DNA of 18,564 nt from a virus (lineage: Duplodnaviria > Heunggongvirae > Uroviricota > Caudoviricetes), in the IMG/VR virus record IMGVR_UViG_2875713109_000004. The stretch is one strand, 5' to 3'. Numbering within the stretch: position 1 is the first letter of the stretch; every line of letters begins with the position of its first letter. Below the pieces are notes generated by a model that searched no databases, was not told the origin of the DNA, and saw nothing but the letters and a program-made list of their open reading frames with translations. Positions 1-6,986 of this stretch are shown one piece after another. Made by a program: the position numbers and the translations under genes.

Positions 1-1254
1 TTGCTTACCGATACCAAACTGAAAAATCTGAAGCCGCAGGAGAAACTGTATAAGGTTTCCGACCGTGACGGGCTGTATGTCGCCGTGCTCACGTCAGGAT
101 CTGTCTCGTTCCGCTACGACTACCGCATTAACGGCCGCCGGGAAACGCTGGTGATCGGTCAGTACGGTCGTGACGGTATCAGCCTGGCGGAAGCGCGCGA
201 GGAACTTATTGCCGCCAAAAAGTTGCTGAAGTCAGGCCAGTCGCCTGCTGCGGCAAAACGTGACGGTATCAGGCAGATTTCCAGCGCAGAAACATTCGCG
301 GTATATACCGACGCCTACATGAAATATGTCACCCTGGCCGACAGCACCCGATCCATGAAGCAGGCGGTTATTGAGCGTGATATCCTCCCGGTGCTCGGAA
401 ACAAGATGATGACTGAGATAACCACCAGGGTGGTGCGCGACCTGTGCGATCGTATCGTCGAGCGTGGCGGCCGGGCGACGGCGATTCAGGTCAGGGAGAT
501 AATCAGCAGTGTGTACCGGTATGCCAACGACCGCGGGCACGGCCTGTTCAATCCGGCTGCCGACATTAAGCCATCATCCATCGCTATGTTTAAGCCGCGC
601 GAGCGCACACTGTCGCCAGAGGAGATCGGCATTTTCTTCCGCGCGCTGGACGACATCGGAGCGATGGGCACAATGAAGATGGCTCTCAAGCTGGTACTGC
701 TGACGCTGGTGCGAAAAAGCGAATTCACTTACGCGACCTGGGCAGAGATCGATTTCAAGAAATGGACATGGACGATCCCCGCTGACAGGATGAAGGCCGG
801 GCGTGCGCATGTGATTTACCTGCCGAAGCAGGCGCAGGATCTGCTGGTGGGGTTGCAGATGTGTGCTGGCGGCAGTGAATACCTGGTGCCCGGGCGCTAC
901 AACTTCCGTAAGCCGTTATCGAACGCGGCGCTGAACTCGCTGGTAAACCGTACCGTGGAGGCCATAAACAGAGACGGCGAGAAGATACAGGACTTCACGG
1001 TGCATGACCTGCGCCGCACTGCCAGCACGCTGCTGCACGAAGCGGATTATCCTTCAGACTGGATCGAGAAGGCGCAGGCGCATGAGCAGAAGGGCGTGCG
1101 GGCGGTGTACAACAAAGCGGAGTATTCTCGGCAGCGCGCCTATATGTTGCAGCAGTGGGCAGATATGGTTGATGCCTGGATTAAAGGGGAGCACACCGAT
1201 CTGGTGCCGTTCTCCCCGTCGAAGTTTGAGAGGTGGACGGAAGGTAAGGATTAA
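1..1254 (+). CDS. int: Tyrosine recombinase / phage integrase (P4-like family); 5' end at or just beyond the window start
   Basis: ORF track 417 aa; N-terminal LTDTKLKNLKPQEK...GLYVAV resembles P4-type integrase N-terminus; C-terminal catalytic region has HDLRRT...H...Y pattern consistent with R-H-R-Y tyrosine recombinase residues. Frame opens at position 1 with TTG so true start may lie upstream of the window. Confidence 0.88.
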   Translation: MLTDTKLKNLKPQEKLYKVSDRDGLYVAVLTSGSVSFRYDYRINGRRETLVIGQYGRDGISLAEAREELIAAKKLLKSGQSPAAAKRDGIRQISSAETFAVYTDAYMKYVTLADSTRSMKQAVIERDILPVLGNKMMTEITTRVVRDLCDRIVERGGRATAIQVREIISSVYRYANDRGHGLFNPAADIKPSSIAMFKPRERTLSPEEIGIFFRALDDIGAMGTMKMALKLVLLTLVRKSEFTYATWAEIDFKKWTWTIPADRMKAGRAHVIYLPKQAQDLLVGLQMCAGGSEYLVPGRYNFRKPLSNAALNSLVNRTVEAINRDGEKIQDFTVHDLRRTASTLLHEADYPSDWIEKAQAHEQKGVRAVYNKAEYSRQRAYMLQQWADMVDAWIKGEHTDLVPFSPSKFERWTEGKD

Positions 1255-1258
1255 GCAG

Positions 1259-1609
1259 CTATTCAAGCTTAACACCAGGGATGTCGCTTGCAGCTATAGC
1301 GTCGTAAATTGCCTCCGCTGTCTTGCTGGCATCCCTTACCAATAAGCAAGCTGCATCGATGGCGCTTATAGCTGCATCACGCTTCTTATCTGCTTCTGAG
1401 CGGATATGGCGGAATCGATGAGCTTGGGAGGTATTTATGCAGTCAAGTCCACGAAATCTCGGGTCTTCTCCAAGCCATGTAAATGCGATTCCATCCATAG
1501 TTATGCATTCTACTCGAACCTTCTTAATTCCATATCCATTCGTTTCGTACTCACACTCACAACCAACCTGAGGCAATCCCTCGCCATCCCATTCTGTAAT
1601 ATTTTTCAT
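1259..1609 (-). CDS. Hypothetical protein (116 aa), last gene of leftward methyltransferase operon
   Basis: Internal ATG (MKNITEWDGEGL...) of track ORF 1259..1741; ATG overlaps stop of upstream methyltransferase gene (ATGA, 1606-1609); GGGAG Shine-Dalgarno about 9 nt upstream. No recognisable family. Confidence 0.45.
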   Translation of the reverse strand: MKNITEWDGEGLPQVGCECEYETNGYGIKKVRVECITMDGIAFTWLGEDPRFRGLDCINTSQAHRFRHIRSEADKKRDAAISAIDAACLLVRDASKTAEAIYDAIAASDIPGVKLE

Positions 1610-2253
1610 GCCGCACGCTCCCGGCCCTGGTTGTCTGTTGGTGACAACGGAGCATTTGCGAATGCCCGCGTCATCCCGGCGATATCCAGCGCGTAGCCAG
1701 GTTGCAACTGCACCGCTGGACCTTTGCACTGGTTGCCCCATACGTCGAAACCATGCGACGACTGGCGGGCGAACAACTCGATGCGCGGCACATCTCCCAG
1801 CAACTGCACCAGTTTTTCCCTGATCACGTCAGGCTTTCGCGAGTTCTCCAGGCGTGGCGCCGTGACGTGCTGGCAGATAGAGGCGTCCATGCGCGCCGGG
1901 AGTTTCCCGCGCACCGCGAAAAGGCAGTCTTCGCTGTTCGCCCTGGTCATGTGTCCCATGCCGATCTCGCTGTTGCCTTTGTGCTTGTTCGTCTTATGCC
2001 AGGTGAATCCCTTCATTGTCATCAGCTTGAATCCCCACGCTTCGACAACCTTCAACGCTTCAACCGGCTGCGTCGGAACCCACCACATCGCGAGCAGGCA
2101 ATCTTCGGCGGCCAGGTCCCACACCGGCAGGCGGCAGATATCCAGCACGTTCATGACCGGGTATTTGAACCCGGCGCCGCGGTTGCCGTCTGCTGCTTTG
2201 TCGCGGTATACCCAGGGCGGGTCAGCGTAGATAAGAGTGTATTTTCCGGTCAT
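1606..2253 (-). CDS. DNA methyltransferase, beta-class amino-MTase (MT-A70-like, DPPW motif near N-terminus); likely N6-adenine
   Basis: Track ORF 215 aa; motif LIYADPPWVY near N-terminus is the hallmark motif IV of MT-A70/beta-class N6A/N4C methyltransferases; AAGGTGG SD 6 nt upstream; start overlaps upstream stop (ATGA). Confidence 0.78.
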   Translation of the reverse strand: MTGKYTLIYADPPWVYRDKAADGNRGAGFKYPVMNVLDICRLPVWDLAAEDCLLAMWWVPTQPVEALKVVEAWGFKLMTMKGFTWHKTNKHKGNSEIGMGHMTRANSEDCLFAVRGKLPARMDASICQHVTAPRLENSRKPDVIREKLVQLLGDVPRIELFARQSSHGFDVWGNQCKGPAVQLQPGYALDIAGMTRAFANAPLSPTDNQGRERAA

Positions 2254-2408
2254 GCTGCCACCTTCTTGCTGTTCATCAGCTCAGCCAGGCGCTGAGCCTT
2301 CAATAGGTTTCTGATAACCTGGCCGCCTGGTGCCAGCCACCCGCGGCGCAGTGTTGAATAAAACAGCGTGATGCTGCCGACGCGGATATTGTCGTGAGGG
2401 CTAGTCAT
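2250..2408 (-). CDS. Small hypothetical protein (52 aa)
   Basis: Internal ATG (MTSPHDNIRV...) of track ORF 2250..2582 placed so that it starts 5 nt after the stop of the upstream PerC-like gene and its stop overlaps the methyltransferase start; weak SD. The longer track ORF would overlap the upstream gene extensively. Confidence 0.3.
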   Translation of the reverse strand: MTSPHDNIRVGSITLFYSTLRRGWLAPGGQVIRNLLKAQRLAELMNSKKVAA

Positions 2409-2700
2409 AAACCACCCCGCGACATCCGATCCCGCTGTAATCCAGGTGCGGGGTGCGGTTACCTTTGGTGATGCACTGCTGGCGGCGCACCGCGATTCGG
2501 GCGCGCTCCACTTCACCGACGGCAGCATCCAGACACTGTAGCCATAGTCTGGCTGCGATTCGGTAATGCCCGCGGCGCTCACGCTCGATGGCCCGGCTTT
2601 CGATCTCCATCGCTTCCGGAGTTACTGCCACAACTTTTTCAGTTCCGCGCTGCGATGCTTTGTTCATGTGATATTTTTCAAGGCGGGTTAATTTTCTCAT
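2401..2700 (-). CDS. PerC/ANR-family-like small transcriptional regulator
   Basis: Internal ATG (MRKLTRLEKYHMNKAS...) of track ORF 2401..2784; motif ERERRGHYRIAARLWLQCL resembles the G-x-WRRAA-x-RWL signature of PerC/ANR small regulators (recalled from memory, not searched). Alternative start at 2667 (MNKAS). Confidence 0.45.
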   Translation of the reverse strand: MRKLTRLEKYHMNKASQRGTEKVVAVTPEAMEIESRAIERERRGHYRIAARLWLQCLDAAVGEVERARIAVRRQQCITKGNRTPHLDYSGIGCRGVVYD

Positions 2701-2809
2701 TTGATCTACCCATCTCAACTGATTACCGCCGCCAGCCACATCAGGTAGGCGACCACGGCCAGATACAGGTAAACATCTGACCATCTTCCGATATGCTTTT
2801 TCAGCGCCG

Positions 2810-3058
2810 TCATGCTGCTGCGCTCACCGGGCGATACACTCGGCGGTCAACTGGCGGCTTTTTTCCGGTGAACGTCGCCGGGCTTGCCGCCTTACGTTTA
2901 TCCAGCCAGGCTTCAACTTCGCTCTGGTCCCACGCGCAGCGGCGATCGGTGATCCAGAAACGAGACGGAAATTTGCCAGCCTGTTCCAGGCGGTCAATCG
3001 TGCTCCATGACAGTGGCACCACCGCCAGGAGTTCCTTCTTACCAAACGCACCTTTCAT
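2810..3058 (-). CDS. AlpA-family phage regulatory / excisionase-like DNA-binding protein
   Basis: Track ORF 82 aa; segment FPSRFWITDRRCAWDQSEVEAWL resembles AlpA/Xis-type winged-helix proteins; GAGAGG SD upstream of ATG at 3058. Confidence 0.7.
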   Translation of the reverse strand: MKGAFGKKELLAVVPLSWSTIDRLEQAGKFPSRFWITDRRCAWDQSEVEAWLDKRKAASPATFTGKKPPVDRRVYRPVSAAA

Positions 3059-3107
3059 AAATACCTCTCTTGGTTGCAGGTGTGGCGCCGCGGCGCCACA
3101 GTGGTGA

Positions 3108-3989
3108 TTACATAGGGACGTTGTTCAGCTCATCACGGCGGATGGTGTAAACGTCTGTTGCTTTAGCCAGGAGCTCATCATCGTTAGCGAGCTTGCTGGC
3201 AACGTATTTGTATGCCTTATCAAGATCCTTCAGCGTGTTGTAGTTCATCGCTGCGTCAGTGAAAGCGCACAGAATTTCTTCAGGATCGCGGTCATCACTG
3301 CTCTTCGGCTTCTCTTCCTGGTGCTGCTCAGGCTTGGAGTTGATCAGCTTGTTCATGCCTGAGGCGGTGGCGGGCGTCGGCGTGATATCGCGCTCAACGC
3401 GTGGTGCTGTCTCCTGCAATTCGTCAGGGGTGTACACGCCAAGCAGGACGTCTGGAGCATTCAGTCGCGCCCAACGCTTAACGCACAGGTATGCCAGTTG
3501 CTGGCGTGGATCCTGCTCCCACAGAGGGGAGTTACGCACACCGGCCTGCGCCATGCTGATCGTCAGCTCGCGCGGTTCTGATTCTCCTTTGAGGGTCGCC
3601 CACACGGTTACTGTCAGGTTCGGCGATTTGTCGGATTTCCCGTTTACTTTCGACCAGTCACCGTCCCAGCGATAATTCAGGCGGGTGGCCAGCAGATTGG
3701 AGGAGGACACAACCGCGTTAACCAGTTGCGCTTCATATCCCAGCGTGCCGTTTACCACGTGAGTTTTCTGAGCCACGGCGAACGGGTTCATTCCCCACTG
3801 TGCAGCCTGCATAGTCACTGCCAGGCAGTCAGCAGGCTTACCTGCCAGGTGTGCCGGAACAGTGGCCTTACTGTCAGCCATCAGGGTTGCGAAACGCACC
3901 AGGCGGTCCATACCCTCAGGGCTGAATATTGCCGCAGCGGTGCCAACTGTAGCGCCAGGCTGCGATGTGATTGCGATGTCGTTGCTCAT
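3108..3989 (-). CDS. recT: RecT-family single-strand annealing recombinase
   Basis: Track ORF 3108..4016; start placed at internal ATG (MSNDIAITSQ...) whose ATG overlaps the stop of the upstream exonuclease gene (ATGA at 3986-3989). Sequence resembles prophage RecT proteins as recalled; paired with a nuclease gene as expected for a RecET-type module. Confidence 0.8.
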   Translation of the reverse strand: MSNDIAITSQPGATVGTAAAIFSPEGMDRLVRFATLMADSKATVPAHLAGKPADCLAVTMQAAQWGMNPFAVAQKTHVVNGTLGYEAQLVNAVVSSSNLLATRLNYRWDGDWSKVNGKSDKSPNLTVTVWATLKGESEPRELTISMAQAGVRNSPLWEQDPRQQLAYLCVKRWARLNAPDVLLGVYTPDELQETAPRVERDITPTPATASGMNKLINSKPEQHQEEKPKSSDDRDPEEILCAFTDAAMNYNTLKDLDKAYKYVASKLANDDELLAKATDVYTIRRDELNNVPM

Positions 3990-4807
3990 ACGTACATATC
4001 CTGTTTGCGTGCCCACTCAGGGCGTTTAATAATTTCAAATCCACCCCATTCGCCTGACTCCCGGCACTGGTGGTAGGTATTCAGATCCCGGCGGAACAGT
4101 GCATGCCCGGCATCTACGTCTGTCGCATCCAGCTCGAACACGCGCACCGGGTAGCGGCCACAGTCGATGGTTTCGCTCACTGCCAGGAAGAAGAATCCGT
4201 GCGGCTCACCGGTGGTCTGCTGCGCGCCTTCGCGGTACATGGCGTCCTGAACGTGGTACCGGAATTCTTCGACGTGGCGGGCGAAGCGCTCCATGTCTGC
4301 AACTTTCTTCACGTCCAGCAGCACCGGGTGATACTTCAGCCGCTTGTCCGGGCGGATGCGGCACAGCTCGCCAGTCTCCGGATCCGTCCAGTAATGCGAT
4401 GCTTCGCAGAATCCTTCCGCTTCAAGCAGCCAGCGCGATGCCGGGTGAGCCATTGCGCTATCACGCATCAGCTCCAGTTTCCGCCACTGCTCTTCATCAA
4501 GTACCGAAATACCCATATCCGCCACATCACGAAGAAATGCCTCTTCGTCAGCTTTACCTTGTTTCGTCCGACGATCGAATTTCGGTGAAACAATGAAGCG
4601 TTTGTCGAACTCTCCAGGCTCCAGAAGCAGACAGTGCAATGCGGTTCCCATATCCAGTGCAGACTTTTTCTCTTCGTCTTCTGGTGCTGCCTGAACCCAT
4701 TTAAGAAGCGCCGGATTCTTGGCTACCATGTCCAGTTGCGACTTACTCACGCCGTCACCGGCGTGGTAGTCTTCGTTGCTGATGTCGAAATAAATTCCCG
4801 GTTTCAT
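3986..4807 (-). CDS. PD-(D/E)XK-family exonuclease (RecE-like partner of RecT)
   Basis: Track ORF 273 aa; region ...RIRPDKRLKYHPVLLDVKKV... fits a D...(D/E)xK nuclease core; position immediately upstream of recT with overlapping stop/start; AGAGGGA SD upstream of ATG at 4807. Confidence 0.7.
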   Translation of the reverse strand: MKPGIYFDISNEDYHAGDGVSKSQLDMVAKNPALLKWVQAAPEDEEKKSALDMGTALHCLLLEPGEFDKRFIVSPKFDRRTKQGKADEEAFLRDVADMGISVLDEEQWRKLELMRDSAMAHPASRWLLEAEGFCEASHYWTDPETGELCRIRPDKRLKYHPVLLDVKKVADMERFARHVEEFRYHVQDAMYREGAQQTTGEPHGFFFLAVSETIDCGRYPVRVFELDATDVDAGHALFRRDLNTYHQCRESGEWGGFEIIKRPEWARKQDMYV

Positions 4808-5103
4808 GCCGCGTCCCTCTGTCCATCAAGCTGATCCGCCAGATCCCAGCGGGCGATAATTGCCATTGCCTCGCGCCGGTAGGCATCCATCAGTTCTTCG
4901 AACTCAGGGCTGTCTTTAGCAGCCTCCAGTACTTCCTGACGAACGCCTTTGCCTGTTACAACGTCGAAAGTTGAGGACAGTTGATGAAGTCGGATGCTCT
5001 CAATCAGTTCAACTTGTCGGTCATATAGCTGTTCTGACAGGTGGTAGTCCTTGTCGAATGCCAGCATGATTTTTTGAAGATTTTTCTGCTGATTAACGTT
5101 CAT
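4804..5103 (-). CDS. Hypothetical early protein (99 aa)
   Basis: Internal ATG (MNVNQQKNLQ...) of track ORF 4804..5118 with strong GGAGGG SD upstream; stop overlaps start of exonuclease gene (ATGA). Confidence 0.5.
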   Translation of the reverse strand: MNVNQQKNLQKIMLAFDKDYHLSEQLYDRQVELIESIRLHQLSSTFDVVTGKGVRQEVLEAAKDSPEFEELMDAYRREAMAIIARWDLADQLDGQRDAA

Positions 5104-5105
5104 TA

Positions 5106-5258
5106 TCAGCCCTCCCATATCTCGTTATCGTTGGCCACATCGCGAGCTTCTTTGCTGACGAAAGCCCACTTGATGCCTTCCTGTAAGGTGCGGCACTTGG
5201 TGCTCATCAGCCCGCACGCCGTAACGCAGTACCAACCGTTGATGATTTTCCACTGCAT
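5106..5258 (-). CDS. Small Cys-containing hypothetical protein (50 aa), first gene of leftward early operon
   Basis: Hand translation of minus strand: MQWKIINGWYCVTACGLMSTKCRTLQEGIKWAFVSKEARDVANDNEIWEG; below the ORF-track size cutoff; stop lies 2 nt before next gene start; TGAGGT-like SD upstream. Coordinates hand-derived, could be off by a few nt. Confidence 0.3.
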   Translation of the reverse strand: MQWKIINGWYCVTACGLMSTKCRTLQEGIKWAFVSKEARDVANDNEIWEG

Positions 5259-5275
5259 AATTCGTTACCTCAGTG

Positions 5276-5352
5276 TTACCGTTGGGGTAATAATTATCCT
5301 TATGTGGTTTGAAGTCAATAGGTATGATTATAAAAAATTACCCGTAAGGTAA
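5276..5352 (-). promoter_or_regulatory. Leftward early promoter region with two perfect TTACC-N5-GGTAA operator palindromes (5276-5290 and 5338-5352) and a TATAAT -10 (minus strand, 5327-5332)
   Basis: Read directly: gTTACCgttggGGTAAt and aTTACCcgtaaGGTAAt; minus-strand TATAAT at 5327-5332 with the 5338-5352 palindrome sitting where a -35 would be. Confidence 0.55.
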
Positions 5353-5361
5353 TTCTAAGGG

Positions 5362-5390
5362 CAATAAAAAAGCCGCTCAATGGCGGCTTA
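5362..5390 (-). terminator. Rho-independent terminator downstream of repressor gene
   Basis: Minus-strand hairpin AAGCCGC-cattga-GCGGCTT followed by TTTTTTATT (plus-strand aaaaaagccgctcaatggcggctt). Confidence 0.6.
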
Positions 5391-5409
5391 ATATCTGAAA
5401 TGTATGGAG

Positions 5410-6000
5410 TTATTCTTGAGTTTTACCGTTCTGAACAATCACGAAATCGACGTAGCTCTCGATCTTGCTTTTCTCGCTCTCAGGTAACAATGCGTAGCGG
5501 GCCCGGTCGTAATGGATGGTCGCCGGGTCGCGAGGATGGATGAGCAACTCATAGCCGCGGCGGCCGAACGCGCTGGCGATCGCCTCCAGGGTGGAGATGG
5601 AAACGCTAACCTCATTGTTCAGCATGCGGTTGATTGTCGCCTGGGCAACGCCGGACGCCTTCGACAGCTTACCCTGGGAGGACAGGTCGCGGTTGTTCTG
5701 CATCCACGCTTCGAGGTTATGCGCCGCCAGCTGGCCGATATCGGAAGGGGTGATCTCCTCCTGGGGGATGGCAACAGCAGATAATGAGTGGTCGACGTCC
5801 AGCCAGTTCGACGGTTTGTTCGCTGCCTTCTCAATCTTGCGCGCCACCGTGTCGCCGACAACCTTCTGCCCGCGGGCCCAGCGGTTCACCAGGTTTGCCT
5901 GAGTTCCCAGTTTTTCCGCCAGACGAGTCTGCACCCCGTTAAAGTCACGGTCGATGATATCGTTAATATTCTGCCTGCGGATATCCTGAATACTTTTCAT
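5410..6000 (-). CDS. Prophage repressor, tandem helix-turn-helix architecture (186-CI-like N-terminal HTH), no S24 peptidase domain
   Basis: Track ORF 196 aa; two HTH-like segments (QTRLAEKLGTQANLVNRWARGQ and LSKASGVAQATINRMLNNEVS); no Ala-Gly cleavage site plus Ser/Lys peptidase domain seen; divergent from a Cro-like gene across an operator-rich intergenic region. Confidence 0.75.
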   Translation of the reverse strand: MKSIQDIRRQNINDIIDRDFNGVQTRLAEKLGTQANLVNRWARGQKVVGDTVARKIEKAANKPSNWLDVDHSLSAVAIPQEEITPSDIGQLAAHNLEAWMQNNRDLSSQGKLSKASGVAQATINRMLNNEVSVSISTLEAIASAFGRRGYELLIHPRDPATIHYDRARYALLPESEKSKIESYVDFVIVQNGKTQE

Positions 6001-6055
6001 GCTCTGGTGAATCGCCTCATATATGAATTAGTTAGTGGTTCAATTAAAAGCGAAT

Positions 6056-6118
6056 TTACCTCACAGGTAAATGCACCCGACAGGTAACAAACCTTGATTT
6101 TTATTACCTTCTGGGTGA
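6056..6118. promoter_or_regulatory. Divergent immunity-region operator/promoter array: perfect TTACC-N5-GGTAA (6056-6070), degenerate copies at 6073-6087 and 6104-6118, candidate rightward promoter TTGATT (6094-6099)
   Basis: Read directly: tTTACCtcacaGGTAAa; gcaccCGACAGGTAA; TTACCttctgGGTGA. Three-site arrangement between repressor and cro-like gene resembles lambdoid OR organisation. Confidence 0.6.
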
Positions 6119-6154
6119 ATATTTGTTATCTGAAATTAATATCAGGCAATAGCT

Positions 6155-6385
6155 ATGAGCGAGAACGAAAAATTCGACTTCAAAAAACACTGGTTGCAAC
6201 TCACTCCTGATGAGCGAAATGCCTTTGCTGACGAGGCCGGAACGACCAGCCACTACATCCAGACTCATCTGACAGGCCGCCGGAAAATGCCCGGTAAGAC
6301 ATTGATGAATGGGCTATTTAAGGCATGTAAACAACGCGGATGGGTCAGAACTAAGCCTGAACTGGCTATCTTCTTCTACGAATAA
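6155..6385 (+). CDS. Cro/CII-like small HTH regulator
   Basis: Track ORF 76 aa; segment AFADEAGTTSHYIQTHLTGRRKMP resembles small phage HTH regulators (Cro/CII/YdaS-like); divergent from repressor. Confidence 0.6.
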   Translation: MSENEKFDFKKHWLQLTPDERNAFADEAGTTSHYIQTHLTGRRKMPGKTLMNGLFKACKQRGWVRTKPELAIFFYE

Positions 6386-6405
6386 AAACTCCTTCTAAAC
6401 CCCAT

Positions 6406-6430
6406 CAGGCCGCCTTCTGGCGGTCTTTTC
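6406..6430 (+). terminator. Rho-independent terminator immediately downstream of cro-like gene
   Basis: Hairpin GGCCGCC-ttct-GGCGGTC (one G-U pair) followed by TTTTC; 20 nt after cro-like stop. Confidence 0.5.
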
Positions 6431-6534
6431 ATATCTATTCAGTCCTCTCAGGTAATAATAATCCGAATATGGTTGATCTTTTTTCGGCCATCGCACAAAA
6501 TCATCGTAACCATAACCAGAATCTGAGGTGAAGT

Positions 6535-6744
6535 GTGGAGATTATCACTCGTATGTCAGCCGCGAAGGCTGGACTGAAGCGTTATTACACCGGAAAGCAG
6601 TGTAAGCGAGGCCATGACAGCGAGCGCTGGGTTTACAACGGCCATTGTGTGGAATGCACCATGGAGTCAAACCGCAGGCGCCAGGCAGAGATTAAACGGA
6701 TTATGGATGAAGCTGCGAAAGGCAACGTGCCGGAGGTGATCTGA
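6535..6744 (+). CDS. Small putative zinc-binding protein (69 aa)
   Basis: Track ORF; motif CKRGHDSERWVYNGHCVEC (C-x3-H ... C-x2-C); GAGGTG SD before GTG at 6535 (alternative ATG at 6553). 3' end overlaps the convergent minus-strand ORF by about 44 nt, so one of the two may be shorter or spurious. Confidence 0.4.
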   Translation: MEIITRMSAAKAGLKRYYTGKQCKRGHDSERWVYNGHCVECTMESNRRRQAEIKRIMDEAAKGNVPEVI

Positions 6745-6928
6745 TGGCGCGCAGCTCAGCCATCGGGCCATCAACATTAAAGCCATCATCACCCAGCTGG
6801 CGCAGCAATGTCATCAGGTGCGAATCTTCAACAAGGGAGCGAACGCCTCCCGGCGTGTGTATACGTTCGGCAAAGCCTTTTTCCAGCGGGTGATGATACT
6901 GACGTTGCATCTGATATTCTCCATGCAT
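6701..6928 (-). CDS. Small ORF directly downstream of a LexA box; candidate SOS-controlled antirepressor (function inferred from context only)
   Basis: Track ORF 75 aa (MHGEYQMQRQYHH...); second ATG at 6910 has GGAG SD about 8 nt upstream and is the more likely start; LexA box sits 4 nt upstream of the first ATG. No recognisable domain. Confidence 0.35.
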   Translation of the reverse strand: MHGEYQMQRQYHHPLEKGFAERIHTPGGVRSLVEDSHLMTLLRQLGDDGFNVDGPMAELRAIRSPPARCLSQLHP

Positions 6929-6929
6929 T

Positions 6930-6949
6930 CACTGTATTTATGTACAGTA
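6930..6949. promoter_or_regulatory. LexA (SOS) box
   Basis: cACTGTATTTATGTACAGTA: perfect CTGT-N8-ACAG with AT-rich spacer, 17 of 20 matches to TACTGTATATATATACAGTA by hand alignment. Confidence 0.7.
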
Positions 6950-6986
6950 GCAAAAGTCCAAGTGACTATCCAGAACGAATTGCCAT

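What the first reader, a model, noticed from the sequence alone, without database searches (positions are those of the whole stretch)
1259..2700. Translationally coupled four-gene operon: PerC-like regulator, small ORF, DPPW methyltransferase, unknown 116-aa protein
Four consecutive minus-strand genes are joined by ATGA overlaps or a 5-nt gap, implying co-translation. The operon sits next to the integrase, a typical accessory or anti-defence hotspot. An orphan beta-class methyltransferase (no cognate restriction enzyme visible in the window) coupled to a PerC/ANR-type regulator and two proteins with no recognisable domains could be an anti-restriction or epigenetic regulation unit. The 116-aa protein (MKNITEWDGEGLPQVGCECEYETNGYG...) is the most opaque member.
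Basis: partly seen in the sequence, partly recalled or inferred. Interest (0 to 1): 0.5.

Follow-up and report, generated by a model that had tools for sequence, protein, structure and literature searches.

The report
Accessory gene tail of epsilon15-like prophage
The four coupled genes are real, but they are the ordinary integrase-proximal end of the long early operon of a decayed epsilon15/phiV10-type prophage of E. coli; three belong to known phage families, and only the 116-aa protein, a small barrel-plus-helices module with a freely swapped middle, remains uncharacterised.

Summary
The four minus-strand genes exist and overlap (8, 4 and 4 nt). They are not a self-contained operon. The coupled chain continues upstream through a 32-aa peptide, Xis/AlpA, RecT and a RecE-like nuclease to the repressor. 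This matches the early-left operon of epsilon15/phiV10 phages (Uetakevirus). The prophage sits at guaA and is a 15.9-kb remnant.

- **PerC gene:** equivalent to epsilon15 gp31.
- **52-aa protein:** 67% identical to lambda Orf60a (DUF1317), so it is not domain-less.
- **Methyltransferase:** an orphan MT-A70/DPPW enzyme, 73% identical to M.EcoPA8orf6770P of Stx phages. That enzyme needs the partner PNB-2 to target 16S rRNA. No PNB-2 homologue is present here.
- **116-aa gene:** low-GC cargo (GC3 0.39 versus 0.61-0.75 for neighbours) in a variable slot next to int. The slot is empty or differently filled in relatives.

The 116-aa protein is the minimal module of a large uncharacterised phage family (3,686 clusters). 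The model shows a Tudor/SH3-like barrel plus a helical hairpin. Its ends are conserved, while the barrel is exchanged as a cassette. The family is not linked to methyltransferases elsewhere.

Verdict: a new member of a known kind, of modest interest.

The parts
2401..2700 (-). PerC-family small regulator (99 aa), equivalent of epsilon15 gp31 / phiV10 p34
   Evidence: Pfam PerC 27.1 bits against a cut-off of 22.6. phrog_868 matches residues 1-99 of 99 at E 2e-49, which fixes the start at 2700. PGAP gives the same coordinates. NCBIfam ANR scores below its cut-off, 25.5 against 32.
2250..2408 (-). DUF1317 protein (52 aa), homologue of lambda Orf60a; its start overlaps the PerC stop by 8 nt
   Evidence: Pfam DUF1317 77.7 bits. 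phrog_1998. 67% identity over 51 aa to lambda Orf60a, E 5e-25. Junction measured.
1606..2253 (-). Orphan MT-A70 family N6-adenine methyltransferase (215 aa, DPPW at residues 11-14), ATGA overlap at both ends
   Evidence: Pfam MT-A70 87 bits. phrog_359 E 8e-116. PADLOC MTase_II 248.7 bits. PDB sequence matches to the ciliate MT-A70 protein and METTL3. 73% identity over residues 1-186 to M.EcoPA8orf6770P. The core is invariant among relatives and the tail after PG186 varies.
1259..1609 (-). 116-aa cargo protein: Tudor/SH3-like barrel (about residues 18-59) plus helical hairpin (72-90, 94-106). It is the minimal 'module C' of a large uncharacterised phage family.
2715..2813 (-). 32-aa membrane peptide ORF (epsilon15 gp32 / phiV10 p35-like), ATGA overlap with AlpA and 14 nt upstream of PerC
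   Evidence: phrog_17484 'membrane protein' E 1.7e-5. Equivalent genes are annotated in epsilon15 and phiV10. A 32-aa gene is called at the same place in L012. Spacing.
2810..3058 (-). AlpA-family excisionase/regulator (82 aa)
   Evidence: Pfam Phage_AlpA 28.3 bits. phrog_66 and phrog_2790, excisionase.
3108..3989 (-). RecT recombinase (PGAP start at 3989), 4-nt overlap with the upstream nuclease gene
   Evidence: Pfam RecT 111.9 bits. PGAP coordinates. Junction.
3986..4807 (-). RecE-like PD-(D/E)XK nuclease (273 aa)
   Evidence: Pfam DUF3799 75.1 bits. Annotated as a PD-(D/E)XK nuclease-like protein.
4804..5258 (-). Two small early genes (epsilon15 gp36- and gp37-like), the first genes of the leftward operon
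   Evidence: phrog_856 E 3e-55. PGAP CDSs at window 4804-5103 and 5106-5258. Synteny with epsilon15 gp36/gp37 and phiV10 p38/p39.
5410..6000 (-). CI-like repressor with HTH. The 5259-5409 spacer downstream of it holds a terminator-like hairpin and two promoter-like sites, making it the candidate PL region.
   Evidence: Pfam HTH_3 51.4 bits. Terminator-like site at 5389-5370 and promoter-like sites at 5380-5352 and 5318-5290 on the minus strand; site counts are not above chance. Operators are annotated at the equivalent place in epsilon15.
1..1254 (+). P4-type tyrosine integrase, convergent with the cluster
   Evidence: Pfam Arm-DNA-bind_3, Phage_int_M and Phage_integrase. PGAP annotation.

Best explanation
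The four genes are the promoter-distal, integrase-proximal end of the leftward early operon of an epsilon15/phiV10-type (Uetakevirus) prophage. The prophage is integrated at the 3' end of guaA in E. coli and has decayed to a 15.9-kb remnant.

**Transcription (inferred from synteny).** It starts at the PL-like region beside the repressor gene, at about 5260-5400. It then runs through gp37-like, gp36-like, the RecE-like nuclease, RecT, Xis/AlpA, the 32-aa peptide, PerC, the Orf60a-like protein, the methyltransferase and the 116-aa gene. It ends against the convergent int gene. The start/stop overlaps couple translation along the chain.

**The genes are independent accessory functions, not subunits of one machine.**
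- The PerC-family protein is a small regulator that is core to this phage group.
- The Orf60a homologue is a predicted beta-sheet DNA-binding protein. In lambda and Phi24B it biases development towards lysis.
- The MT-A70 enzyme most likely acts alone as an orphan N6-adenine DNA methyltransferase on replicating phage and host DNA. This is my inference. Its close relative M.EcoGV is listed with GATC specificity. rRNA targeting in the Stx-phage relative requires PNB-2, which is absent here.
- The 116-aa gene is later-acquired low-GC cargo in the variable slot beside int. Its conserved N-terminal motif and C-terminal helical hairpin form a constant frame. The Tudor/SH3-like barrel between them is a swappable specificity module, probably binding a host or phage macromolecule (inferred).
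For: **Identity and synteny**
- The window is 100% identical to E. coli PSS-07 next to guaA, and 563 of 5,426 E. coli genomes carry related sequence.
- Gene order matches epsilon15 gp27-gp38 and phiV10 p31-p40.
- The sequence is 92% identical to Enterobacter phage BUCT554.

**Continuity of the operon**
- Junctions are -4, +49, -4, +14, -8, -4 and -4 nt.
- No promoter or terminator excess was found.
- The same overlaps occur in J6, E2348/69 and epsilon15.

**Family assignments:**

**Independence of the genes**
- The gene beside int varies among relatives: none in J6, DUF1382 in phiV10 (and upstream of the methyltransferase in other E. coli prophages), gp28 in epsilon15, two small ORFs in PT62, and a 59-aa ORF in E2348/69. 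E2348/69 and SPNIS2 also carry an ASCH or DGQHR gene upstream of the methyltransferase.
- The methyltransferase is a pseudogene in PT62.

**Cargo status of the 116-aa gene**
- GC3 is 0.39 against 0.61-0.75 for neighbours.
- The gene is absent from otherwise ~90%-identical prophages.

**116-aa family**
- Two confident AF2 models with unrelated barrel sequences have the same architecture and the same fold class.
- The ends are 70-96% identical while the centre is 6-26% identical among short forms.
- The DNA flanks are more than 95% identical around an unrelated core of about 150 nt.
- The same cassettes are present in long forms.
- No MT-A70 lies nearby in 14 of 15 other loci.

**No PNB-1 or PNB-2 homologue:** best E 1.2.

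**Literature:** PMC10810198, PMC6602927, PMC6213356 and PMC8614690.
Against: - No transcript data exist. The single-operon reading rests on synteny and spacing.
- A weak promoter-like match (2718-2691) overlaps the PerC start, and a G+C-rich hairpin sits between RecT and xis (3081-3100; z -1.4, not significant).
- The substrate of the methyltransferase is untested. Its nearest characterised relative prefers 16S rRNA when complexed with a partner, and MT-A70 enzymes often need partners.
- DUF1317 is frequently adjacent to the MT-A70 gene in this phage group, and Orf60a is predicted to bind nucleic acid. A partnership is therefore not excluded.
- The prophage is defective, so some of these genes may no longer serve any function.
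- The function of the 116-aa protein is wholly inferred from fold and variation pattern.
Confidence: 0.75

Rival explanations
1. The four genes form a self-contained, co-evolving anti-restriction or epigenetic unit in which a regulator and two helper proteins act with the methyltransferase.
For: Translational coupling is tight. The methyltransferase is orphan. The position next to int is a cargo hotspot. DNA-modification-related genes (DGQHR, ASCH) occur next to the methyltransferase in relatives.
Against: Coupling extends upstream to xis and recET. Each gene is lost or replaced independently in close relatives. Orf60a occurs in lambda without any methyltransferase. The 116-aa family is not methyltransferase-linked and differs in composition.
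Confidence: 0.08
2. The methyltransferase is an rRNA (or RNA) methyltransferase holoenzyme like M.EcoPA8orf6770P-PNB-2. The coupled DUF1317 protein, or the coupled 116-aa Tudor-like protein, would replace PNB-2 as the nucleic-acid-binding targeting subunit and tune prophage induction.
For: The catalytic core is 73% identical to the Stx-phage enzyme. In that system the partner gene lies immediately upstream with a 4-nt overlap, the same geometry as DUF1317/methyltransferase here. Orf60a is modelled as a DNA-binding beta-sheet domain. The 116-aa protein has a fold class that often binds nucleic acids or proteins. The C-terminal tail proposed to bind the partner is lineage-specific.
Against: No PNB-2 homologue is present. 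phiV10 and PT62 have the same tailed enzyme without DUF1317, and J6 has it without the 116-aa gene. E2348/69 has another gene inserted between DUF1317 and the methyltransferase. DUF1317 and the 116-aa family both occur widely without MT-A70.
Confidence: 0.1
3. The cluster is functionally dead baggage: intact-looking ORFs in a recently deleted prophage remnant, neither expressed nor selected in this host.
For: The prophage has lost everything from the replication gene to the tailspike. The orthologous methyltransferase is a pseudogene in PT62. Only 5 of 5,426 E. coli genomes carry this exact arrangement.
Against: All ORFs of the left operon, the repressor and int are intact and match full-length profiles. 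The five carriers come from different hosts and countries yet are at least 99.8% identical. The remnant retains serotype-conversion and lysis genes that suggest selection for some cargo.
Confidence: 0.12

Closest known systems
Early-left region of Salmonella phage epsilon15 (gp27 int to gp38 repressor) and E. coli phage phiV10 (p31-p40), genus Uetakevirus
   Same: Same gene order and orientation: int convergent with a variable gene, then MT-A70 methylase, a small ORF, PerC-like activator, membrane peptide, AlpA/Xis, RecT, RecE-like nuclease, two small genes and the repressor. The same 4- and 8-nt overlaps occur. The same guaA-side integration is seen in E. coli relatives.
   Different: The slot beside int holds the 116-aa gene here, in place of epsilon15 gp28 or the phiV10 DUF1382 gene. 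phiV10 lacks DUF1317. The epsilon15 enzyme lacks the C-terminal tail. Here the prophage is a 15.9-kb remnant.
M.EcoPA8orf6770P-PNB-2 of Stx phage PA8 (Gong, Chakraborty and Koudelka 2023, PMC10810198) and its relative M.EcoGV
   Same: MT-A70 enzyme with DPPW, 73% identical over residues 1-186. Prophage-encoded near int. Orphan. A small gene sits upstream with a 4-nt overlap.
   Different: The upstream gene there is a 143-aa winged-helix protein (PNB-2), and a 225-aa PNB-1 lies further upstream. Neither has a homologue in the window. The C-terminal ~30 residues differ. Substrates reported for the relatives are 16S rRNA with PNB-2 and GATC DNA for M.EcoGV. Nothing was tested for this enzyme.
Lambda exo-xis region protein Orf60a (DUF1317)
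   Same: 67% identical over 51 residues. An early-left, non-essential accessory gene near the recombination genes. Published data: deletion gives more lysogens and slower induction, and the protein is modelled as a three- or four-stranded beta-sheet DNA-binding domain.
   Different: In lambda it follows exo directly and lies between exo and xis. Here it lies beyond xis, after PerC and before a methyltransferase. It is 52 aa against 60 aa.
PerC / Pch family of EPEC and EHEC (Pfam PF06069)
   Same: The Pfam PerC domain scores above the gathering cut-off. It is a small prophage-borne protein annotated as a transcriptional activator.
   Different: The match covers only residues 37-85 at 27 bits. 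No evidence exists for LEE/ler activation. In this phage group it is a core early gene rather than a virulence add-on.
PHROG 7798 / 3483 (uncharacterised phage proteins); Tudor/PWWP/SH3-like fold class
   Different: The window protein lacks the N-terminal module or modules of typical members, which are 180-210 aa. Sequence identity to any solved Tudor or PWWP domain is about 10%, and no functional site was compared, so this is fold resemblance only.

Membership tests
MT-A70 family / beta-class N6-adenine methyltransferase | Pfam PF05063 match above the gathering score over the full domain | tested here: met
   87 bits against a cut-off of 23.9; residues 5-175 match profile positions 1-172 of 172.
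MT-A70 family / beta-class N6-adenine methyltransferase | Catalytic motif IV DPPW near the N-terminus | tested here: met
   IYADPPW at residues 8-14, invariant in six relatives. It aligns with the DPPW of the ciliate MT-A70 chain.
MT-A70 family / beta-class N6-adenine methyltransferase | Methyl transfer to adenine N6, and identity of the substrate (DNA motif or RNA) | not testable with these tools
   Needs methylome or in-vitro assays. Relatives are reported on GATC DNA and on 16S rRNA.
M.EcoPA8orf6770P-PNB-2 type rRNA methyltransferase holoenzyme | PNB-2 (winged-helix partner) encoded next to the methyltransferase | tested here: not met
   tblastn of PNB-2 and PNB-1 against the window gives a best E of 1.2. 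The upstream gene is DUF1317 instead.
M.EcoPA8orf6770P-PNB-2 type rRNA methyltransferase holoenzyme | Conserved C-terminal ~27 residues proposed to be needed for the partner | tested here: not met
   Similarity ends at about residue 186 and the tails are unrelated.
Type II restriction-modification system | Cognate restriction endonuclease gene adjacent to the methyltransferase | tested here: not met
   The neighbours are DUF1317, the 116-aa protein and int. The only nuclease found in the prophage is the RecE-like recombination exonuclease. The enzyme is therefore orphan.
DUF1317 / lambda Orf60a | Pfam PF07026 above cut-off and direct similarity to lambda Orf60a | tested here: met
   77.7 bits against 22.3. 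67% identity, E 5e-25.
DUF1317 / lambda Orf60a | Location in the exo-xis interval directly after exo | tested here: not met
   Here it lies between PerC and the methyltransferase, beyond xis.
PerC family | Pfam PF06069 above the gathering score | tested here: met
   27.1 bits against 22.6, residues 37-85. phrog_868 matches full length.
PerC family | Activation of ler/LEE or another defined target | not testable with these tools
   No functional data for Uetakevirus PerC-like proteins were found (one search returned nothing relevant).
ANR (AraC negative regulator) family | NCBIfam NF033650 at or above its cut-off | tested here: not met
   25.5 bits against a cut-off of 32.
Uetakevirus (epsilon15-like) early-left operon | Synteny int / variable gene / MT-A70 / small ORF / PerC / membrane peptide / AlpA / RecT / nuclease / two small genes / repressor | tested here: met
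   DNA identity is 92% to BUCT554 and about 80% to epsilon15.
PHROG 7798/3483 'module C' family (116-aa protein) | Conserved frame: W-x-G-x-G-L-P-x-x-G before the barrel, then P-I-R-S-E-x-D-K-K-R and Y-D-A-I-A-x-G-x-I-P after it | tested here: met
   W7, G9, G11, P13, G16, P68, R70, E72, K76, R77, Y102, I105, G108 and I110 are at least 90% conserved in 113 sequences. PHROG matches.
Tudor / PWWP reader domains | Aromatic cage or defined ligand-binding site | not tested

The most novel reading that the evidence does not exclude
The 116-aa protein is the minimal form of a very large, entirely uncharacterised family of early phage proteins. The family comprises at least 3,686 clusters at 50% identity and occurs in temperate P22-like and epsilon15-like phages and in virulent siphoviruses.

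In this family a constant frame carries a Tudor/SH3-like barrel that is exchanged between phages as a recombination cassette. The frame consists of the N-terminal WDGxGLPPVG motif and a C-terminal helical hairpin.

The most novel reading not excluded is that the barrel is a target-recognition module under arms-race diversification. It would bind a variable host defence or host-takeover target. In the Uetakevirus slot it may act together with the translationally coupled MT-A70 enzyme.
Probability: 0.15. Interest if true: 0.6.

Novelty: new member of a known kind. Interest (0 to 1): 0.3.

Why it matters
As submitted, the finding is an ordinary accessory segment of a known phage type, and three of its four genes fall into described families. 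Two points have some value.

1. It is a natural variant of the Stx-phage MT-A70 enzyme that lacks the PNB-2 partner and carries a different C-terminal tail. That makes it a clean comparator for the open question of whether these prophage enzymes methylate DNA, rRNA or both, and what the partner contributes.
2. The 116-aa protein gives a compact, confidently modelled entry point into a very widespread early-phage protein family of unknown function. Its barrel is swapped like a cassette. This pattern is usually seen in specificity determinants and could repay an anti-defence or host-target screen.

Tried and rejected
- **Solved-structure sequence search for the 116-aa protein:** no meaningful hit; best E 1.3.
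- **Other libraries for the 116-aa protein:** Pfam, NCBIfam and PADLOC gave nothing. Pfam on ten long forms and ten extra-long, multi-module forms gave nothing. BFVD fold search returned only uncharacterised proteins. The afdb50 fold library was unavailable.
- **Methyltransferase linkage of the 116-aa family:** rejected. Only the same-lineage locus L012 has an MT-A70 gene within 4-5 kb; 14 other loci do not.
- **PNB-1/PNB-2 homologues in the window:** none.
- **Internal promoter or terminator delimiting a four-gene operon:** site counts equal chance. The RecT-xis hairpin is not significant (z -1.4) and lacks a T-run.
- **Structured RNA:** no Rfam family in the window.
- **Epsilon15 genome paper:** three attempts to reach it for data on the methylase failed because it is not held. 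Literature searches for PerC in epsilon15-like phages returned nothing relevant.
- **Complex prediction:** methyltransferase plus small-protein complexes could not be modelled, because the structure tool folds single chains only.
Full report
**Observation**

The window has four consecutive minus-strand ORFs at 2401-2700 (99 aa), 2250-2408 (52 aa), 1606-2253 (215 aa) and 1259-1609 (116 aa). The junctions are overlaps of 8 nt (ATGACTAG), 4 nt (ATGA) and 4 nt (ATGA). Each start is preceded by a purine-rich Shine-Dalgarno-like stretch inside the upstream gene. The last stop lies 4 nt from the stop of a convergent tyrosine integrase at 1-1254. PGAP annotates the same four CDSs in a 100%-identical E. 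coli chromosome, strain PSS-07.

**Context**

The window is a prophage of the epsilon15/phiV10 type (genus Uetakevirus).
- The segment is 92% identical to Enterobacter phage BUCT554 and about 80% identical to Salmonella phage epsilon15.
- Gene order is the same as epsilon15 gp27-gp38 and phiV10 p31-p40. That order is int, a variable gene, adenine methylase, a small ORF, PerC-like activator, a membrane peptide, AlpA/Xis, RecT, a RecE-like nuclease, two small genes and the repressor.
- In the window these are int, the four genes, a 32-aa peptide (2715-2813; phrog_17484), AlpA (2810-3058), RecT (3108-3989), a PD-(D/E)XK nuclease (3986-4807), gp36- and gp37-like genes (4804-5258) and a CI-like repressor (5410-6000).
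- Spacing along the chain is -4, +49, -4, +14, -8, -4 and -4 nt.
- Promoter-like and terminator-like sites occur no more often than in shuffled sequence.
- The only notable structure is a G+C-rich hairpin between RecT and xis (3081-3100). It has no T-run and is not significant (z -1.4). Epsilon15 annotates a 'pausing' stem-loop at the same place.

The four genes are therefore best read as the distal end of one long leftward early operon, not as an operon of their own. This is an inference from synteny and spacing. No transcript data exist.

**State of the prophage**

A 16-bp direct repeat, ATTGAGTGGGAATGAT, lies at the 3' end of guaA just upstream of the window and again at window 15645-15660. 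The element is therefore about 15.9 kb, against about 39-40 kb for epsilon15-like phages. Similarity to BUCT554 stops at about 6756 inside the replication (primosomal) gene. The next gene is the tailspike at 7106-9457. It is followed by a Wzy-like gene, a 514-aa gene, GtrB and GtrA, two holins, an endolysin and Rz. The replication, packaging and virion genes are gone.

**PerC gene**

The protein scores 27.1 bits against Pfam PerC, above the 22.6 cut-off. It matches phrog_868 over the full length (residues 1-99 of 99), which fixes the start at 2700. The NCBIfam ANR model scores below its cut-off. The gene is a core gene of this phage group. I found no functional study of it.

**52-aa gene**

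It is not domain-less.
- It scores 77.7 bits against Pfam DUF1317 and is 67% identical to lambda Orf60a.
- Lambda tables list orf60a as the DUF1317 protein of the exo-xis region.
- Published work reports that deleting orf60a from lambda and Phi24B gives more survivors and lysogens and slower induction (PMC6213356; PMC8614690).
- The protein is modelled as a small beta-sheet DNA-binding domain (PMC8614690).

**Methyltransferase**

The 215-aa protein matches Pfam MT-A70 at 87 bits over the full domain and has DPPW at residues 11-14. Its nearest solved relatives are the ciliate MT-A70 protein and METTL3. No restriction enzyme was found in the prophage ORFs that were scanned, so the enzyme is orphan.

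It is 73% identical over residues 1-186 to M.EcoPA8orf6770P of Stx phage PA8. That enzyme was shown to do the following (PMC10810198):
- raise spontaneous prophage induction;
- be weak and non-specific on its own;
- form a 1:1 complex with PNB-2, a winged-helix protein encoded immediately upstream;
- then prefer 16S rRNA as substrate.

Its relative M.EcoGV is listed with GATC specificity and methylates GATC in vivo when overproduced.

The window has no PNB-1 or PNB-2 homologue; the best tblastn E is 1.2. The C-terminal ~30 residues, which the authors suggest serve the partner, are unrelated. Within Uetakevirus the same tailed enzyme occurs in several arrangements:
- without DUF1317 (phiV10, PT62);
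- without a downstream gene (J6);
- with an ASCH gene inserted upstream (E2348/69);
- with a DGQHR gene upstream (SPNIS2);
- as a pseudogene (PT62).

I therefore favour a stand-alone DNA adenine methyltransferase. This is inference. The substrate is untested.

**116-aa gene: origin and distribution**

- Its GC3 is 0.39 against 0.61-0.75 for every neighbour.
- It is absent from otherwise ~90%-identical prophages, in which the methyltransferase abuts int.
- The slot beside int holds other genes in other relatives. The gene is therefore acquired cargo.
- It has no Pfam, NCBIfam, PADLOC or PDB sequence match.
- It matches the C-terminal half of phrog_7798 and phrog_3483, both of unknown function.
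- There are 648 homologues in the word-indexed search. A profile search finds 3,686 clusters at E<=1e-3, of which 1,106 are at 1e-10 or better.
- Typical members are 180-210 aa and carry an N-terminal module (MKLIDILVxELPxxGGWPEGA...). Some are 260-390 aa with repeated modules. None has a Pfam domain.
- Homologues occur in early-gene clusters of virulent siphoviruses, next to xis/int in P22-like prophages and beside recombination genes.
- Of 15 other loci examined, only the same-lineage locus has an MT-A70 gene within 4-5 kb.

**116-aa gene: structure and variation**

Conserved residues lie before the barrel (W7, G9, G11, P13, G16) and in the helical part (P68, R70, E72, K76, R77, Y102, I105, G108, I110).

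Among 27 short-form relatives:
- the first 19 residues are mostly 70-95% identical to the window protein;
- the last 50 residues are mostly 72-96% identical;
- the central 47 residues are only 6-26% identical in most.

At the DNA level the window and locus L012 are more than 95% identical on both sides of an unrelated core of about 150 nt. Each barrel variant also occurs, at up to 98% identity, in long-form proteins.

A second model was built for P0035, whose centre is 11% identical to the window protein. It has the same architecture (pLDDT 81.9) and the same fold class. The protein is thus a constant frame carrying an exchangeable barrel cassette. What the barrel binds is unknown. Variable target recognition is my inference from this pattern.

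**Verdict**

It is wrong on one junction, on the 'no domain' claim for the 52-aa protein and on the operon boundary. The idea of a dedicated four-gene anti-restriction or epigenetic unit is not supported by comparative data, although the methyltransferase is orphan and the location is a cargo hotspot.

The segment is a new member of a known kind. Residual interest lies in two things. The first is the PNB-2-less variant of a prophage MT-A70 enzyme whose substrate is debated. The second is the uncharacterised cassette-swapping barrel protein.

Noticed in passing
window 1-15660 (attR core 15645-15660; deletion junction about 6756-7100): The prophage is a remnant of about 15.9 kb. A 16-bp repeat, ATTGAGTGGGAATGAT, lies at the guaA 3' end (L001:4595) and at 15645-15660. 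Similarity to phage BUCT554 stops at about 6756 inside the replication gene, and the next gene is the tailspike. Replication, packaging and virion genes are missing.
   Followed up: partly
window 9606-13712: Surface-modification cargo lies between the tailspike and the lysis genes: a Wzy-like O-antigen polymerase or ligase (9606-10817, weak Pfam match), a 514-aa protein with no family match (10851-12395, minus strand), a GtrB-like glycosyltransferase (12310-13239) and GtrA (13236-13712). The 514-aa gene sits where a serotype-specific GtrC would be expected.
   Followed up: no
window 3081-3100: A perfect G+C-rich palindrome (GUGGCGCC-GCGG-GGCGCCAC) sits in the 49-nt gap between RecT and xis, with no T-run after it. 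Epsilon15 annotates a 'transcriptional pausing' stem-loop at the same position. The folding energy is not significant against shuffles (z -1.4).
   Followed up: partly
window 2715-2813: A 32-aa membrane-peptide ORF (phrog_17484) overlaps the AlpA stop by ATGA. It is not annotated by PGAP in the identical PSS-07 genome, but it is annotated in epsilon15 and phiV10 and called in L012.
   Followed up: partly
L019:1791-2504 (E. coli E2348/69) and L005:2361-3428 (phage SPNIS2): In relatives, an ASCH-domain gene or a DGQHR-domain (DndB/DpdB-like) gene lies directly upstream of the MT-A70 gene. This suggests that the spot collects nucleic-acid-modification genes.
   Followed up: no
P0152, P0157, P0167, P0129 (relatives of the 116-aa protein): Long family members of 280-390 aa are chains of repeated modules. 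Up to three copies of the MKLIDILV...GGWPEGA module occur, along with a second barrel-like module (GWIEWxGGECPV...DIIAYRL), ahead of the module found in the window. No Pfam domain is present in any of them.
   Followed up: partly
window 15754-18564: Beyond attR lie host genes: a DUF5384 protein (15754-16287) and a glycine-zipper lipoprotein (16303-16821). An IS3-family transposase follows (17174-18268), with a further ORF running to the window end (18265-18564).
   Followed up: no
window 1-6000: The prophage left arm has 55-63% G+C, higher than I would expect for E. coli, and its best phage match is an Enterobacter phage at 92% identity. This suggests a recent origin in Enterobacter-like hosts. 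Close homologues of the 116-aa protein are also mostly from Enterobacter.
   Followed up: no
window 1702-2295 (+) and 1724-2230 (+): Two long ORFs (197 and 168 aa) run antisense to the methyltransferase gene. They have no independent support and are most likely a by-product of the high G+C content.
   Followed up: no
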